From positions 8,979 through 72,978 of the forward strand of contig LBYH01000002.1 of the NCBI GenBank assembly GCA_000996035.1: a DNA stretch of 64,000 nt, read 5' to 3'. The notes beneath the pieces were generated by a model. That model ran no database searches, was not told where the DNA came from, and was given only the letters and a program-made list of their open reading frames with translations. Positions 28,930 through 31,308 of the stretch are shown here, piece after piece. The DNA is from Parcubacteria group bacterium GW2011_GWA2_40_143 (GTDB lineage: Bacteria; Patescibacteriota; Minisyncoccia; UBA9983). The position numbers and the translations under genes are program-made. Position 1 is the stretch's first letter, and each line of letters begins with the position of its first letter.

Positions 28930-30159
28930 TTATACACTTAACTCTTCTCTCGCCACCGTGGCATCGTCCCACGGTTCTTTGGCGCCGTTTGACCCCATTA
29001 TGTATGGGTCGGTGCCTTTGCCGGTAATTATAACGGCTGGATTTTGGCTGTTGTTTTTAGCCAATTTAGTTATTTTTATAGCCTCTCTTATAGCTTCCCG
29101 CCTATCCATAATTATTTTGGCGCACTTACTGGTAATGCCTTCTTTCATCTCATTTACTATTTTAACAGGATCTTCATCATAAGGATCTTCGTTTGTAAGG
29201 ATGATCTCCGCGCAATACTTACCGGCAATCTCTCCCATTACCTTGCGCTTCCAAGTGTCTCGACCGCCACCCGTATTGCCTAAAACGCAAACAAGTTCAT
29301 GCCGACTCGCTAAGGATTTATATGCCGCTTCCAATGAATCCGGCGTGTGAGCATAATCTATATAAACAGGAAATGCCCCCTCTTCATTTACATTTTCCAT
29401 TCTGCCACGCACGCCTTTAAACTTATCCAAAGCTTTTTGGATTACTTCCTTGTTCAATCCCAAGCCTTCAGCCACGGTGGCGGCGGCAAGCGCGTTGTAA
29501 ATATTAAACTCCCCGATAAGATATGGGACTTTATAGCCCTTGGTGTCGCTCAAAGAATATGCCAACTTCTTATCGGCCGAGACGCTCAAAAAACTTTCCG
29601 CCTCTTTATCATCTTTATTTACCACTAAGACACGCGGTCTTTTGCTTGAACGAGCAAGGGTTCTGGCAATGCTCAGTTTGGCTTGTTTGTATTTCTCATA
29701 AGAACCGTGGCTTTCAATATGCTCCGGTGCCAAATTGGTAAAGATGAGAGCATCCATAGAAATAAATCTCTGGCGAAATTGCTTGGCGCCTTCCGAGGTC
29801 ATTTCCACAATCGTATAATCACATTTATCTCTTACCGCTTTTCTTAAAAACTTTTGGACAAATAGCCGCCCGGGCATAGTCATTTTGAAAAGATTACGTT
29901 CATCCTTATCCCCTATTTTAAAACGCAAAGTGCCTAAAATGGCTGTTTTATAGCCGGCTTCTTCCAAAATGGCATTTACCAGTTCCGCCACCGTAGTTTT
30001 ACCTTTAGTGCCGGTTACACCTATTATTTTAATTTTACGAGAAGGAAAGCCGTAAATCAGCGCGGCTAAAAAGGCCAGAGCGAGATGATAAACCGGCTGA
30101 AAAAATTCAAAAACCGTCTTGGGGATTATTTTGCGGCCAATATTTAGAAGGCTTTCCAT
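28930..30159 (-). CDS. Mur ligase family protein (MurE/MurT-like) with a short N-terminal region
   Basis: 409 aa; 'IIGVTGTKGKTT', 'MTSEGAKQFR', 'FTNLAPEHIESHGSYEKYKQAK', 'YIDYAHTPDSLEAAYKSL'. Confidence 0.65.
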   Translation of the reverse strand: MESLLNIGRKIIPKTVFEFFQPVYHLALAFLAALIYGFPSRKIKIIGVTGTKGKTTVAELVNAILEEAGYKTAILGTLRFKIGDKDERNLFKMTMPGRLFVQKFLRKAVRDKCDYTIVEMTSEGAKQFRQRFISMDALIFTNLAPEHIESHGSYEKYKQAKLSIARTLARSSKRPRVLVVNKDDKEAESFLSVSADKKLAYSLSDTKGYKVPYLIGEFNIYNALAAATVAEGLGLNKEVIQKALDKFKGVRGRMENVNEEGAFPVYIDYAHTPDSLEAAYKSLASRHELVCVLGNTGGGRDTWKRKVMGEIAGKYCAEIILTNEDPYDEDPVKIVNEMKEGITSKCAKIIMDRREAIREAIKITKLAKNNSQNPAVIITGKGTDPYIMGSNGAKEPWDDATVAREELSV

Positions 30160-30271: not shown

Positions 30272-30520
30272 TTAGCAAGAAACTTCGGCTGGAATTTTGG
30301 TGATAATGACTTTATTGGATTCAAAAGGAATTTCTTGTTTCAATTCTTTAAGAACTTCCAAACACCCTTCAATGGCGTCCTTGGCCATTATCTCAGCTTC
30401 TTCAAATGTTTCTCCTTGTGTCACACAACATGGAATAGCCGGGATATAAACAATATACCCACCTTCTTCAGCTGGTTCAAATATAGCCGTAAAATTGTAG
30501 ATTTTTTTAACTTTTTTCAT
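30272..30520 (-). CDS. hicB: HicB-like antitoxin (UPF0150/YcfA partner family), orphan
   Basis: 82 aa; 'IYNFTAIFEPAEEGGYIVYIPAIPCCVTQGETFEEAEIMAKDAIEGCLE'. No hicA ORF in any frame within 300 nt on either side. Confidence 0.65.
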   Translation of the reverse strand: MKKVKKIYNFTAIFEPAEEGGYIVYIPAIPCCVTQGETFEEAEIMAKDAIEGCLEVLKELKQEIPFESNKVIITKIPAEVSC

Positions 30521-30608: not shown

Positions 30609-30660
30609 GCAAAGCAGTTTGCCTGCTCATCCCTTGCTACGCTGCGGGATGGGAGAATCG
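30609..30660. repeat. 52-bp direct repeat of the tRNA-Gly 3' end plus downstream flank (att-like scar); the second copy is at 30726-30777
   Basis: GCAAAGCAGTTTGCCTGCTCATCCCTTGCTACGCTGCGGGATGGGAGAATCG occurs twice 117 bp apart. Copy B continues into the intact tRNA; copy A diverges exactly after ...GAGAATCG (the T-arm). Confidence 0.6.
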
Positions 30661-30759
30661 CCTATTGCATAGGCAGGCTGTTTTTGGCCTTACGGCAACA
30701 AAAACACTTTCGATTCTCCACGCAGGCAAAGCAGTTTGCCTGCTCATCCCTTGCTACGC

Positions 30760-30830
30760 TGCGGGATGGGAGAATCGAACTCCCGACCTCGGTTTGGAAA
30801 ACCGATATTATACCATTTAACTAATCCCGC
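30760..30830 (-). tRNA. tRNA-Gly (anticodon UCC), no encoded CCA
   Basis: Cloverleaf read by hand: acceptor GCGGGAT/ATCCCGC, anticodon stem TCGGT/ACCGA, loop TTTCCAA, T-arm GGGAG-TTCGATT-CTCCC. Confidence 0.8.
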
Positions 30831-30900
30831 TTATTTTACAATCCAAATATTATATCTTGAATTTTAAAGCAAAAATTAAATAAAAACAACCACGCAAAAG

Positions 30901-30936
30901 AAAAACCCCTTAATAATTTATATAAGGGGGTTTTCT
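30901..30936 (-). terminator. Bidirectional intrinsic terminator (AAAAACCCC...GGGGGTTTT)
   Basis: G/C stem flanked by A5 and T4-5, immediately downstream of the small Cys-rich ORF on the minus strand. Confidence 0.5.
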
Positions 30937-30949
30937 TAATTAGTCTTGT

Positions 30950-31096
30950 TTAGTTGCAACCGCCGCAAACTCCACAAGCGTCATCTTGGCTACTACTAGC
31001 AGGCTCTTCGCCTGTGGCAGCTCCTTCAGAAGAAGCTTCTCCTCCTTCTGTTGTTTCTGCTCCGGTAGCTTCTGTGTTTATGTTTTGATCTTCCAT
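30950..31096 (-). CDS. Small acidic peptide with a C-terminal Cys motif (MEDQNINTEATGAETTEGGEASSEGAATGEEPASSSQDDACGVCGGCN)
   Basis: 48 codons, has its own terminator, absent from the ORF track (<60 aa). No strong Shine-Dalgarno sequence. Confidence 0.3.
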   Translation of the reverse strand: MEDQNINTEATGAETTEGGEASSEGAATGEEPASSSQDDACGVCGGCN

Positions 31097-31237
31097 TTTA
31101 TTGTTTTTAGCCTTATAAATCCGAATCCTGCCAAAGCAGGATGAGATAATTTAAAGCCGTTTAAATTAAAGCTTTCAATGACGACCTTTTCTACCTTAGT
31201 ATTTATATTATATTCATAAAGACAAAAATGTCAAGGT

Positions 31238-31308
31238 TCGGGCTGCTGGGAATTGAACCCAGTCTACCTGCTCCCAAAGCAGGCGTACTACCGGTATACG
31301 ACAGCCCG
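31238..31308 (-). tRNA. tRNA-Pro (anticodon UGG), no encoded CCA
   Basis: Acceptor CGGGCTG/CAGCCCG (C1-G72, typical of bacterial tRNA-Pro), anticodon stem CCTGC/GCAGG, loop TTTGGGA, T-arm CTGGG-TTCAATT-CCCAG. Confidence 0.75.

What the first reader, a model, noticed from the sequence alone, without database searches (positions are those of the whole stretch)
30950..31096. Stand-alone 48-aa acidic peptide ending in ACGVCGGCN, with its own terminator
The ORF was found by hand between tRNA-Gly and tRNA-Pro: MEDQNINTEATGAETTEGGEASSEGAATGEEPASSSQDDACGVCGGCN. The acidic Gly/Ala/Thr/Ser-rich leader-like body ending in a three-Cys motif resembles a RiPP precursor or a small metal-binding peptide, and a clean bidirectional terminator follows it directly. 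No modification enzymes are adjacent, so the function is open.
Basis: seen in the sequence. Interest (0 to 1): 0.5.

Follow-up and report, generated by a model that had tools for sequence, protein, structure and literature searches.

The report
Conserved three-cysteine microprotein beside tRNA-Gly
The 48-codon ORF is a real gene for a tiny acidic, disordered protein with an invariant three-cysteine motif, found only in a group of ultra-small groundwater bacteria and almost always placed just ahead of one glycine tRNA gene; its function is unknown, and binding a metal or iron-sulfur cluster is the best guess.

Summary
A perfect sigma-70 promoter precedes it and a strong hairpin terminator follows it.

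It is not a chance ORF. I found 63 distinct homologous peptides of 33-76 aa in groundwater Patescibacteria (Paceibacterota, "Nomurabacteria"). Of these, 61 keep C-x-x-C-x-G-C, usually as [FY]DPDSDxCxxCGGCG. The annotated frame gives pN/pS 0.26; four of the other five frames give 1.0-1.5, and the antisense codon-aligned frame gives 0.37.

No Pfam, NCBIfam or PDB family matches. AlphaFold predicts disorder.

In every locus where the downstream DNA is available, the gene sits directly upstream of tRNA-Gly(UCC), often only 14-50 nt away with no promoter between. It is therefore probably the translated 5' part of an mRNA-tRNA co-transcript. The window's copy has its own terminator.

No RiPP maturase is nearby in the window or in 19 long related loci. 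The conservation pattern is also the reverse of a typical RiPP, so that reading is weak. Attenuator tests were negative.

Best inference: a metal- or Fe-S-binding microprotein whose motif matches the first three cysteines of the ferredoxin motif and synthetic [4Fe-4S] maquettes. This is untested.

The parts
31207..31234 (-). Sigma-70 promoter TTGACA-16-TATAAT, immediately downstream of tRNA-Pro
   Evidence: 12 of 12 consensus match. Identical in relatives L007, L008, L009 and L031. The more distant family members have TTGACT-17-TATAAA at the corresponding place.
31097..31200 (-). 5' UTR of about 104 nt (transcription start inferred about 7 nt after the -10 box); contains the hairpin ATCCTGCTTTGGCAGGAT at 31125-31143
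   Evidence: At least as conserved as the ORF between the window and L007. Shorter (81 nt) and without the hairpin in L009. No Rfam match. There is no Shine-Dalgarno sequence at normal spacing, which is typical of genes in this window.
30950..31096 (-). 48-aa ORF including the stop codon: an acidic, Gly/Ala/Thr/Ser-rich, disordered body followed by the Cys triad
   Evidence: (exact peptide on 18 contigs). AF2 mean pLDDT 57 with no secondary structure.
30956..30982 (-). Conserved motif D39-A-C-G-V-C-G-G-C47 (C-x-x-C-x-G-C)
   Evidence: Cys41, Cys44, Gly46 and Cys47 are invariant. The codons vary only at third positions across 28 unique ORF DNAs. 61 of 63 distinct peptides keep the motif.
30896..30937 (-). 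Intrinsic terminator hairpin flanked by an A-run and a U-run, so potentially bidirectional
   Evidence: -18.9 kcal/mol, z = -3.27. Equivalent hairpins occur in L007, L009 and L016.
30760..30830 (-). tRNA-Gly(UCC), the conserved downstream partner of the ORF
   Evidence: ARAGORN and Rfam. Lies downstream on the same strand in every family locus where downstream DNA is available. Spacers are 14-120 nt except where a mobile insert intervenes.
31238..31308 (-). tRNA-Pro(UGG), the upstream neighbour (context only, not a conserved partner)
   Evidence: Its orientation and distance vary among relatives, and it is replaced by RuvC/YebC in L099 and L101.

Best explanation
**Shown**
- 30950-31096 (-) is a genuine protein-coding gene of an unannotated, lineage-restricted microprotein family. 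The family occurs in Patescibacteria/Paceibacterota, including a 'Candidatus Nomurabacteria' MAG.
- The product is a 33-50-aa chain that is strongly acidic and almost free of hydrophobic residues, and it is predicted to be disordered.
- Its only constrained element is the near-C-terminal motif [FY]-D-P-D-S-D-x-C-x-x-C-G-G-C-(G). In the window this reads ...SSQDDACGVCGGCN.

**Inferred from anatomy**
- The gene is transcribed from a strong, conserved sigma-70 promoter.
- In most relatives that promoter is the only available promoter for the tRNA-Gly(UCC) gene lying 14-50 nt downstream. The ancestral unit is therefore an mRNA-tRNA co-transcript. RNase P cleavage at the tRNA 5' end would release the small mRNA, and expression would be high and tied to tRNA synthesis.
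- In the window's lineage a strong terminator and a 120-nt spacer have largely uncoupled the two genes.

**Inferred from the motif only**
- The three thiolates form two overlapping C-x-x-C-G knuckles with acidic residues just upstream. I propose they bind a metal ion or an iron-sulfur cluster.
- Three Cys cannot complete a tetrahedral Zn site or a [4Fe-4S] site, so the fourth ligand would come from a second chain or a partner protein.
- The acidic disordered body would act as a solubilising or partner-binding tail.
For: **Coding and conservation**
- Three routes found homologues: phmmer against 1.84 billion representatives gave P0002 ...SSDCETCSGC; synteny through the murE-like gene gave L016, MADEEQKKTEEETTEDAEHKFNPDSDACGVCGGCGGEEQ; profile searches gave P0003-P0041.
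- A DNA-pattern scan added about 45 metagenomic loci.
- pN/pS is 0.13-0.36 for close pairs. It is 0.26 in the annotated frame; four of the other five frames give 1.0-1.5, and the antisense codon-aligned frame gives 0.37, as expected for the complement of a coding frame.
- Motif codons differ only at synonymous third positions.
- Between the window and L007, the 19 C-terminal residues are unchanged despite 3 synonymous substitutions.

**Expression signals**
- 12/12 promoter; promoter conserved across the family; terminator z = -3.27.
- SD-less starts are the norm in this genome.

**Linkage to tRNA-Gly**
-. It holds even where the upstream genes differ. No promoter or terminator was found in the short spacer of L099.

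**Disorder**
- AF2 pLDDT 57, no secondary structure. Mean D+E is 32% and LIVFMWY 9%.

**Metal or cluster reading**
- hhalign aligns the family motif 'h.fdP.s-daCg.CgGCg' to ferredoxin 'DSIFVIDA-DTCIDCGNCA' at 41.7% probability.
- Sub-threshold Fer4_15 hit for P0010.
- CxxCxxC is the canonical low-potential [4Fe-4S] motif (PMC9059760; PMC3320576).
- Synthetic Gly/Cys peptides such as Ac-CGGGCGGCGGC-NH2 host [4Fe4S] clusters (PMC10946529).
Against: - There is no experimental evidence of translation or of metal binding.
- There are only three Cys. The defining fourth Cys-Pro of ferredoxins is absent, and the His seen in many members is not conserved; it is absent from the window peptide.
- The ferredoxin resemblance is short and statistically weak: 41.7% hhalign probability, with Pfam scores below threshold.
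- The invariance of D-A-C-G-[VA]-C-G-G-C among the loci is partly by construction, because the scan pattern required it. The non-pattern routes nevertheless show the same triad.
- Co-transcription with tRNA-Gly is inferred from spacing alone.
- Several other thiol chemistries would fit the same motif equally well, including redox buffering, persulfide relay and soft-metal detoxification.
Confidence: 0.4

Rival explanations
1. RiPP or peptide-cofactor precursor. The acidic N-terminal part is a leader. The Gly/Cys-rich C-terminal motif is a core modified into thiazoles, thioethers or similar by a maturase encoded elsewhere in the genome.
For: - The peptide is small, with a leader-like acidic body and a Gly/Cys-rich C-terminal segment reminiscent of thiazole/oxazole-modified microcin cores such as McbA (own knowledge).
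- It has its own promoter.
- Unlinked precursors are known for some RiPP classes (own knowledge).
Against: - No radical-SAM (CxxxCxxC), YcaO, LanB/C/M, peptidase or exporter gene lies within about 10 kb in the window.
- No CxxxCxxC ORF of at least 200 aa occurs in 19 related loci of at least 5 kb.
- The conserved neighbours are YraN, the CCA-adding enzyme, a murE-like ligase, S15, NYN and PNPase.
- The 'core' is nearly invariant over genomes whose murE-like proteins are only about 50% identical, while the 'leader' varies in sequence and length.
- The window holds a single copy with no paralogues.
- The gene is embedded in a housekeeping tRNA transcription unit.
- The tail after the last Cys varies freely: none, N, GGEE or GLPATP.
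Confidence: 0.12
2. Cis-acting regulatory leader peptide. Translation of the ORF, with stalling at Gly or Cys codons or a nascent-chain arrest, controls read-through or processing of the downstream tRNA-Gly(UCC).
For: - The ORF is invariably placed directly upstream of tRNA-Gly(UCC), even when the upstream genes differ.
- A GC-rich hairpin (CCCCGAC...GTCGGGG) often lies between the stop codon and the tRNA.
- The window ORF uses GGA for 5 of 8 Gly codons, against about 19% GGA in the window's large genes. GGA plus GGG in the ORF against 26% in neighbouring genes gives binomial p = 0.03.
Against: - The ORF tail shows no excess complementarity to the 5' arm of the downstream hairpin: mean z = -0.07 over 29 loci.
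- Nine other lineages, and L009, show no enrichment of UCC-cognate Gly codons.
- Selection acts on amino acids at non-Gly positions (F, D, P, S, D, C) while synonymous sites vary.
- The distance from the motif to the stop codon varies from 0 to 8 or more codons.
- In the window lineage the ORF is separated from the tRNA by a strong terminator, yet remains under purifying selection at pN/pS 0.21.
Confidence: 0.08
3. Thiol-chemistry microprotein without a stable metal site. It would act as an abundant ribosomally made thiol/disulfide redox buffer, a persulfide (sulfur-relay) carrier, or a soft-metal (As, Cu, Hg, Cd) sponge in organisms that lack glutathione-type thiols.
For: - Three closely spaced Cys in a soluble, disordered, probably highly expressed peptide.
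- The source samples are groundwater metagenomes.
- Trigonal three-Cys sites are typical for As(III), Cu(I) and Pb(II) (own knowledge).
Against: - No thioredoxin-like fold or partner genes lie nearby.
- The strict spacing and the Gly residues (CxxCGGCG), together with the conserved upstream FDPDSD, suggest a defined binding geometry rather than generic thiols.
- The idea cannot be tested in silico.
Confidence: 0.15
4. Pup/UBact-like conjugatable tag. A disordered acidic peptide ending in ...GGEE or GGEEQ would be ligated to target proteins through its C-terminal carboxylate.
For: Many members end in GGEE or GGEEQ, and all are short, acidic and disordered, like Pup (Pup features from own knowledge).
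Against: - The C-terminus is not conserved: N in the window, none in P0002, GLPATP in 7 peptides, plus GPDENENK, GGHSE and others.
- Pup has no Cys triad.
- No Pup-ligase, Dop or proteasome-ATPase domain appears in any neighbourhood.
Confidence: 0.02
5. Not a gene: a chance ORF within a tRNA leader or spacer, or a non-coding RNA.
For: - The ORF is short and low in complexity.
- The 5' UTR is as conserved as the ORF between the two closest genomes.
- No SD sequence is present.
Against: - The frame-specific pN/pS of 0.26 is the lowest of the six frames; four of the others give 1.0-1.5 and the antisense codon-aligned frame 0.37.
- The ORF is intact in more than 60 distinct variants. Insertions and deletions are in multiples of three, and start and stop codons are conserved.
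- Gene callers predicted it in JGI, ENA and NCBI data.
- No Rfam family matches.
Confidence: 0.03

Closest known systems
Bacterial-type ferredoxin [4Fe-4S] binding motif (Pfam Fer4, CxxCxxCxxxCP) and synthetic ferredoxin maquettes (FdM1 KLCEGGCIACGACGGW; Mq3 CGGGCGGCGGC)
   Same: - C-x-x-C-G-x-C spacing with Gly-rich context and an upstream D-x-D-x.
- hhalign aligns FDPDSDACGVCGGCG to FVIDADTCIDCGNCA.
- Minimal Gly/Cys peptides with this spacing bind [4Fe4S] in vitro (PMC10946529; PMC9059760; PMC3320576).
   Different: - Only three Cys: there is no fourth Cys-Pro and no second motif.
- No beta-alpha-beta fold; the peptide is predicted to be disordered.
- Pfam scores are below threshold, with no hit at all for the window peptide.
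- The N-terminal body is strongly acidic.
RiPP precursors with Gly/Cys-rich cores (for example microcin B17 McbA and other thiazole/oxazole-modified microcins; own knowledge)
   Same: A short peptide with a leader-like N-terminal part and a Gly/Cys-rich C-terminal segment.
   Different: - No cyclodehydratase, dehydrogenase, radical-SAM enzyme or exporter nearby in any of about 20 long loci.
- The core is invariant and the leader variable.
- The genomic setting is a housekeeping tRNA unit.
Protein-coding sequences inside tRNA operons (E. coli tyrT-tpr, thrU-tyrU-glyT-thrT-tufB; own knowledge; tpr is mentioned in PMC3141248)
   Same: An mRNA and a tRNA share one promoter and are separated by RNase processing.
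   Different: - Here the small ORF precedes the tRNA and forms its long 5' leader.
- The product is acidic and Cys-bearing, whereas Tpr is basic and protamine-like.
- The linkage is conserved across a whole clade.
Zinc-knuckle / rubredoxin-type C-x-x-C-G metal knuckles
   Same: Two overlapping C-x-x-C-G turns (C41-G-V-C44-G and C44-G-G-C47-G/N).
   Different: Zinc ribbons and rubredoxins pair two separate knuckles giving four ligands within a folded domain. Here there is one triad in a disordered chain.
Pfam DUF6587 and FeoB-associated Cys-rich small membrane proteins
   Same: A C-terminal Gly/Cys cluster. Three members give weak sub-threshold hits to the DUF6587 C-terminus (E 0.3-1.2).
   Different: - Scores are far below the gathering threshold (10-12 bits against 27).
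- Those proteins carry an N-terminal hydrophobic segment (own knowledge). This family has none: LIVFMWY is 6-9%.

Membership tests
RiPP precursor (lanthipeptide, TOMM, sactipeptide, ranthipeptide) | Maturase gene (LanB/C/M, YcaO, radical-SAM/SPASM) adjacent to or clustered with the precursor | tested here: not met
   Pfam on 20 neighbouring proteins covering 21.5-41 kb shows only housekeeping genes. No CxxxCxxC ORF is present in the 64-kb window or in 19 related loci of at least 5 kb. The conserved neighbours are YraN, the CCA enzyme and a murE-like ligase. A distant maturase cannot be excluded.
RiPP precursor (lanthipeptide, TOMM, sactipeptide, ranthipeptide) | Conserved leader with a recognition or cleavage site, and a more variable core | tested here: not met
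   The reverse pattern is seen. The Cys motif is nearly invariant, the N-terminal body varies in sequence and length, and no double-Gly type leader is present.
RiPP precursor (lanthipeptide, TOMM, sactipeptide, ranthipeptide) | Post-translational modification of core residues | not testable with these tools
   Needs mass spectrometry of the native peptide.
Ferredoxin Fer4 domain (PF00037 / PF13459) | C-x-x-C-x-x-C triad | tested here: met
   Present in 61 of 63 distinct peptides.
Ferredoxin Fer4 domain (PF00037 / PF13459) | Fourth ligand C-P three residues after the triad or in a second motif, and a score above the Pfam gathering threshold | tested here: not met
   No fourth Cys is present. 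The window peptide has no Fer4 hit, and the only hit is P0010 against Fer4_15 at 13.5 bits versus a cutoff of 22.4. hhalign probability is 41.7%.
Ferredoxin Fer4 domain (PF00037 / PF13459) | Binds an Fe-S cluster | not testable with these tools
   Needs anaerobic reconstitution with UV-vis and EPR.
Transcription-attenuation leader peptide | Alternative antiterminator pairing between the end of the ORF and the terminator's 5' arm | tested here: not met
   Duplex energies compared with shuffles give a mean z of -0.07 over 29 loci.
Transcription-attenuation leader peptide | Enrichment of codons cognate to the regulated product, here GGA/GGG for tRNA-Gly(UCC) | tested here: not met
   Only the window lineage is marginal (5/8, p = 0.03). 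Nine other lineages give p of 0.1-0.57. L009 uses GGA for 1 of 5 Gly codons.
Pup / UBact conjugation tags | Conserved C-terminal GGQ/GGE, and PafA/Dop ligase genes | tested here: not met
   The tails vary: N, none, GGEE, GLPATP and others. No Pup-ligase domains are found in the neighbourhoods.
Bacterial metallothionein (SmtA type) | Cys-rich domain with many Cys/His ligands (about nine Cys plus His in SmtA; own knowledge) and a Pfam match | tested here: not met
   Only three Cys are present. There is no Pfam or NCBIfam hit at E up to 10.
Any solved structure or curated family | Sequence similarity to PDB, Pfam or NCBIfam entries | tested here: not met
   A family profile search against PDB gave 0 hits at E up to 10. 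NCBIfam gave 0 hits. Pfam gave only sub-threshold hits. The one NCBI annotation found is 'hypothetical protein'.

The most novel reading that the evidence does not exclude
The family is a natural 'half-ferredoxin'. In this reading, a roughly 40-residue disordered acidic peptide uses its single D-x-D-x-C-x-x-C-G-G-C motif to assemble a [4Fe-4S] cluster, or another Fe-S cluster, between two chains or together with a partner protein. That would make it a living counterpart of the minimal Gly/Cys/Asp peptides proposed as ancestors of ferredoxins and built synthetically as maquettes. It would be mass-produced from a tRNA promoter in genome-reduced Patescibacteria.
Probability: 0.12. Interest if true: 0.8.

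Novelty: new variant of a known kind. Interest (0 to 1): 0.5.

Why it matters
**An unrecognised family.** Microproteins under 50 aa are under-annotated, and Patescibacteria (CPR) carry many genes of unknown function. This study defines a previously unrecognised microprotein family under purifying selection. It has no Pfam, NCBIfam or PDB relatives, one sharply defined motif, and an unusual fixed genomic position as the translated 5' leader of a tRNA gene.

**If it binds an Fe-S cluster or metal.** It would be one of the smallest natural cluster- or metal-binding proteins. It would also be directly comparable with synthetic ferredoxin maquettes and with early-peptide models of ferredoxin evolution.

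**If it is something else.** A RiPP or a translational sensor for tRNA-Gly would each be a first for this lineage.

**Testability.** The peptide is short enough to be made by chemical synthesis, so the main hypotheses are cheap to test.

Tried and rejected
- **Family and structure libraries.** Pfam and NCBIfam gave no family at E up to 10, apart from sub-threshold DUF6587 and Fer4_15 hits. A PDB profile search found nothing. Rfam on the locus and on 5 relatives found only tRNAs above threshold.
- **Structure prediction.** AlphaFold2 with a 12-sequence alignment gave pLDDT 57 and no secondary structure, so no fold search was run.
- **Paralogues.** A search of the window for ORFs with Cys-rich tails found none.
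- **Maturase hunt.** Pfam on 20 neighbouring proteins, plus a CxxxCxxC scan of the window and of 19 long related loci, was negative.
- **Attenuator model.** The antiterminator complementarity test and the Gly-codon test were both negative.
- **Pup-like tag.** Rejected because the C-termini vary. The literature search on UBact was uninformative.
- **Phage origin.** The motif pattern has no match in viral contigs.
- **Synteny route.** Ten GTDB genomes with the murE-like gene were fetched, but only one (L016) keeps the tRNA-Pro/tRNA-Gly arrangement and the peptide. I could not scan whole genomes of the others.
- **Literature.** Searches for CPR small Cys-rich proteins and for Patescibacteria RiPPs gave nothing specific.
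- **Chance hits.** About 27 of the 72 pattern-scan hits were chance matches in GC-rich DNA or in large Cys-rich surface proteins, and were discarded.
Full report
**1.

The minus strand of 30950-31096 carries an ATG-started ORF of 48 codons. It encodes MEDQNINTEATGAETTEGGEASSEGAATGEEPASSSQDDACGVCGGCN. It lies between tRNA-Gly(tcc) at 30760-30830 and tRNA-Pro(tgg) at 31238-31308, both on the same strand.

- **Terminator.** Downstream is an interrupted 14-bp hairpin flanked by an A-run and a U-run: -18.9 kcal/mol, z = -3.27, with no shuffle folding as well.
- **Promoter.** Upstream, immediately after tRNA-Pro, is a perfect sigma-70 promoter, TTGACA-16-TATAAT, at 31234..31207. It implies a 5' UTR of about 104 nt.
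- **Ribosome binding.** There is no Shine-Dalgarno sequence at normal spacing. That is true of almost every gene in this window, so it does not count against translation.
- **Genome type.** The neighbours suggest a genome-reduced Patescibacteria (CPR) bacterium. They include HicB, YraN, a murE-like ligase, S15, NYN, PNPase, the CCA-adding enzyme, RNase Y, DnaA and DnaN.
- **Source.** The exact peptide occurs on 18 contigs from groundwater metagenomes.

**2. It is a real, conserved gene**

A 48-codon ORF alone means little, so I looked for relatives by independent routes.

- **Word-indexed search.** It found a 90%-identical variant, P0001. At the DNA level the 19 C-terminal residues are unchanged despite three synonymous substitutions. 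All five amino-acid changes fall in the N-terminal body.
- **Exhaustive phmmer.** A search of 1.84 billion representatives found P0002, MDEQNTNTEATGTETSEAGESKEGATGEEPAQASSDCETCSGC. It sits in the same tRNA-Pro / promoter / ORF / terminator / tRNA-Gly / murE-like arrangement.
- **Synteny.** Among GTDB genomes fetched through the murE-like protein, a 'Candidatus Nomurabacteria' MAG (L016) keeps the tRNA-Arg/tRNA-Pro/tRNA-Gly arrangement. Its ligase is only about 50% identical. Just upstream of its tRNA-Gly lies an ORF encoding MADEEQKKTEEETTEDAEHKFNPDSDACGVCGGCGGEEQ.
- **Profile searches.** These added P0003-P0041.
- **DNA-pattern scan.** A degenerate pattern for D-A-C-G-[VA]-C-G-G-C run against metagenome contigs added about 45 family loci. 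About 27 further hits were obvious chance matches.

In all there are 63 distinct peptides, of which 61 contain C-x-x-C-x-G-C. The two exceptions (P0018, P0028) come from long contigs and look like sequencing errors. The usual context is [FY]-D-P-[DN]-S-[DE]-x-C-x-x-C-G-G-C-G. The tail after the last Cys is free: none, N, GGEE, GGEEQ, GLPATP, GPDENENK and others.

Evidence for selection on the protein:

| Measure | Result |
|---|---|
| pN/pS, close pairs | 0.13-0.36 |
| pN/pS, 23 'MADEE-type' sequences, annotated frame | 0.26 |
| pN/pS, four of the other five frames | 1.0-1.5 |
| pN/pS, antisense codon-aligned frame (expected echo) | 0.37 |
| P, D, A, C, G codons of the motif | vary only at third positions |

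One caveat applies. The invariance of the nine-residue motif among the loci is partly imposed by the search pattern. The phmmer, synteny and profile routes were not constrained in that way and show the same Cys triad.

**3. Anatomy of the unit across the family**

- **Promoter.** All members have a conserved promoter upstream of the ORF, often just after the terminator of the upstream gene. In the distant members it is TTGACT-17-TATAAA, about 55-60 nt before the ATG. In the window lineage it is TTGACA-16-TATAAT, 110 nt before the ATG.
- **Upstream context varies.** tRNA-Pro appears in either orientation at 120-1000 nt, or is replaced by RuvC/YebC.
- **Downstream partner is fixed.** It is always tRNA-Gly(UCC) on the same strand.
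- **Spacing.** In at least 13 distinct loci the spacer is 14-50 nt. In L099 this short spacer holds no promoter or canonical terminator.
- **Hairpin.** In many loci a GC-rich hairpin (CCCCGAC...GTCGGGG) fills the spacer and abuts the tRNA 5' end.

I therefore infer that promoter, small ORF and tRNA-Gly form one transcription unit. RNase P would separate the mRNA from the tRNA. Such a design would give strong expression that follows tRNA synthesis. Co-transcription is an inference from spacing, not an observation.

**4. What the product looks like**

- The peptides are 32% Asp+Glu on average and only about 9% hydrophobic.
- They have no signal peptide or transmembrane segment.
- AlphaFold2 predicts no structure: pLDDT 57, no secondary structure.
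- No Pfam, NCBIfam or PDB family matches.
- The only public annotation found is 'hypothetical protein'.
- No fusion of the motif to a larger domain turned up among the hits. The longer entries are upstream-start or frameshift artefacts.

**5. Mechanism: what was tested**

*RiPP precursor.*
- Twenty neighbouring proteins covering 21.5-41 kb are housekeeping proteins.
- No CxxxCxxC-bearing ORF exists in the 64-kb window or in 19 related loci of at least 5 kb.
- The only recurrent neighbours are YraN, the CCA-adding enzyme and the murE-like ligase.
- The window has a single copy.
- The 'core' is nearly invariant while the 'leader' varies.
- I rate this reading at about 0.12, because a distant maturase cannot be excluded.

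*Attenuation or arrest leader for tRNA-Gly.* The fixed position invites this idea, but the tests were negative.
- The ORF tail shows no excess complementarity to the hairpin's 5' arm: mean z = -0.07 over 29 loci.
- UCC-cognate Gly codons are enriched only marginally, and only in the window lineage: 5 of 8, p = 0.03. Nine other lineages and L009 show no enrichment.
- Selection is on amino acids, not on codons.
- The distance from the motif to the stop codon varies.
- The ORF remains under purifying selection where a terminator uncouples it from the tRNA.
- I rate this at about 0.08.

*Pup-like tag.* The variable C-terminus and the lack of ligase genes exclude it.

*Non-coding RNA or chance ORF.* The frame test excludes it.

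*Metal or Fe-S binding (preferred).*
- The triad forms two overlapping C-x-x-C-G knuckles preceded by acidic residues.
- A profile comparison aligns 'h.FDP.S-DaCg.CGGCg' with the second cluster motif of Clostridium pasteurianum ferredoxin, 'DSIFVIDA-DTCIDCGNCA'. The probability is 41.7% and the pairwise E-value 2.7e-4. I supplied the ferredoxin sequence from memory.
- One member gives a sub-threshold Fer4_15 hit.
- CxxCxxC is the canonical low-potential [4Fe-4S] motif (PMC9059760). It has been proposed as an early metal-binding peptide (PMC3320576).
- Synthetic peptides as simple as Ac-CGGGCGGCGGC-NH2 host [4Fe4S] clusters (PMC10946529).
- Against membership in the ferredoxin family: the fourth Cys-Pro is missing, there is no fold, and the scores fail the thresholds. 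This is a 'works like' lead, not a family assignment.
- Three ligands imply either oligomerisation or completion of the site by a partner protein.
- Other thiol chemistries remain open: redox buffering, persulfide carriage, or soft-metal sequestration.

**6. Verdict**

| Claim | Status | Confidence |
|---|---|---|
| Real protein-coding gene of an unannotated, Patescibacteria-restricted microprotein family with an invariant Cys triad | shown | about 0.9 |
| Conserved position as the 5' leader of tRNA-Gly(UCC) | shown | high |
| Shared transcript with tRNA-Gly | inferred | moderate |
| Binds a metal or Fe-S cluster | best guess | overall statement 0.4 |

Novelty: a new family of a broadly known kind (a small Cys-motif metal-binding protein, and a protein-coding sequence within a tRNA operon), with an unusual genomic design. 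Interest is moderate at 0.5. It would be high if the half-ferredoxin reading proved true.

Noticed in passing
window 30609-30660 and 30726-30777; HicB-like gene at 30272-30520 (-): A perfect 52-nt direct repeat. The second copy overlaps the last 18 nt (3' end) of tRNA-Gly(tcc). A lone HicB-like antitoxin gene with no HicA lies next to it. In relative L009 the tRNA-Gly is followed directly by the murE-like gene. The window therefore appears to carry an insertion or att-like scar of about 600 bp at the tRNA-Gly 3' end.
   Followed up: partly
L083 1939-2340 (similar in L073, L075, L086, L020, L026): Right after the small ORF lies a degraded 5' fragment of tRNA-Gly. It is followed by an insert of about 400 nt and then an intact tRNA-Gly. 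The insert encodes an ORF of about 90 aa that looks like a GIY-YIG-type nuclease by eye (MYYTYVLSLTDDRNGKKFYVGATSNLQERILRHKNKG...). This tRNA-Gly seems to be a hotspot for small mobile elements. The ORF was not run against Pfam.
   Followed up: partly
window 31125-31143 (-), within the 5' UTR: The hairpin ATCCTGCTTTGGCAGGAT shares the 10-mer CCTGCTTTGG with the anticodon arm of the adjacent tRNA-Pro. It is absent from the shorter UTR of L009. It may be a tRNA-derived fragment or a chance match.
   Followed up: no
L074, L084, L086, L055 (downstream of the small ORF): The 'GLPATP' C-terminal variants seem to come from an insertion of GC-rich repeat sequence into the end of the ORF. The original ...GGCGGGGAAGAGTAA ending is still visible downstream in L074, L084 and L086. 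A REP-like hairpin, GCTACG..AAAGCGGGCTTGCCCGCCGAAGCGTAGC, recurs between the ORF and tRNA-Gly in many loci.
   Followed up: no
L033, L047, L090 (marine metagenome contigs): Very large Cys-rich proteins, with ORFs up to 1858 aa, carry repeated modules containing DACGVCGG[TNC]G next to Asp-rich stretches. This looks like an unrelated, probably extracellular disulfide or calcium-binding repeat that shares the short motif by convergence.
   Followed up: no
window 28930-30159 (-): The murE-like ligase downstream of tRNA-Gly is only 409 aa. It passes the TIGR01085 murE subfamily cutoff (316 against 257 bits), but it lacks the usual N-terminal domain and begins with a hydrophobic stretch.
   Followed up: partly
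window, all major ORF starts: Almost no gene in the window has a Shine-Dalgarno motif upstream. Several have a -10-like TATAAT close to the ATG, which suggests SD-independent or leaderless initiation in this organism.
   Followed up: no
window 30950-31096 (-): GGA supplies 5 of the ORF's 8 Gly codons, against about 19% GGA in the window's large genes. Other lineages of the family do not share this bias. It may simply reflect the purine-rich GAA/GGA simple-sequence character of this lineage's ORF.
   Followed up: yes
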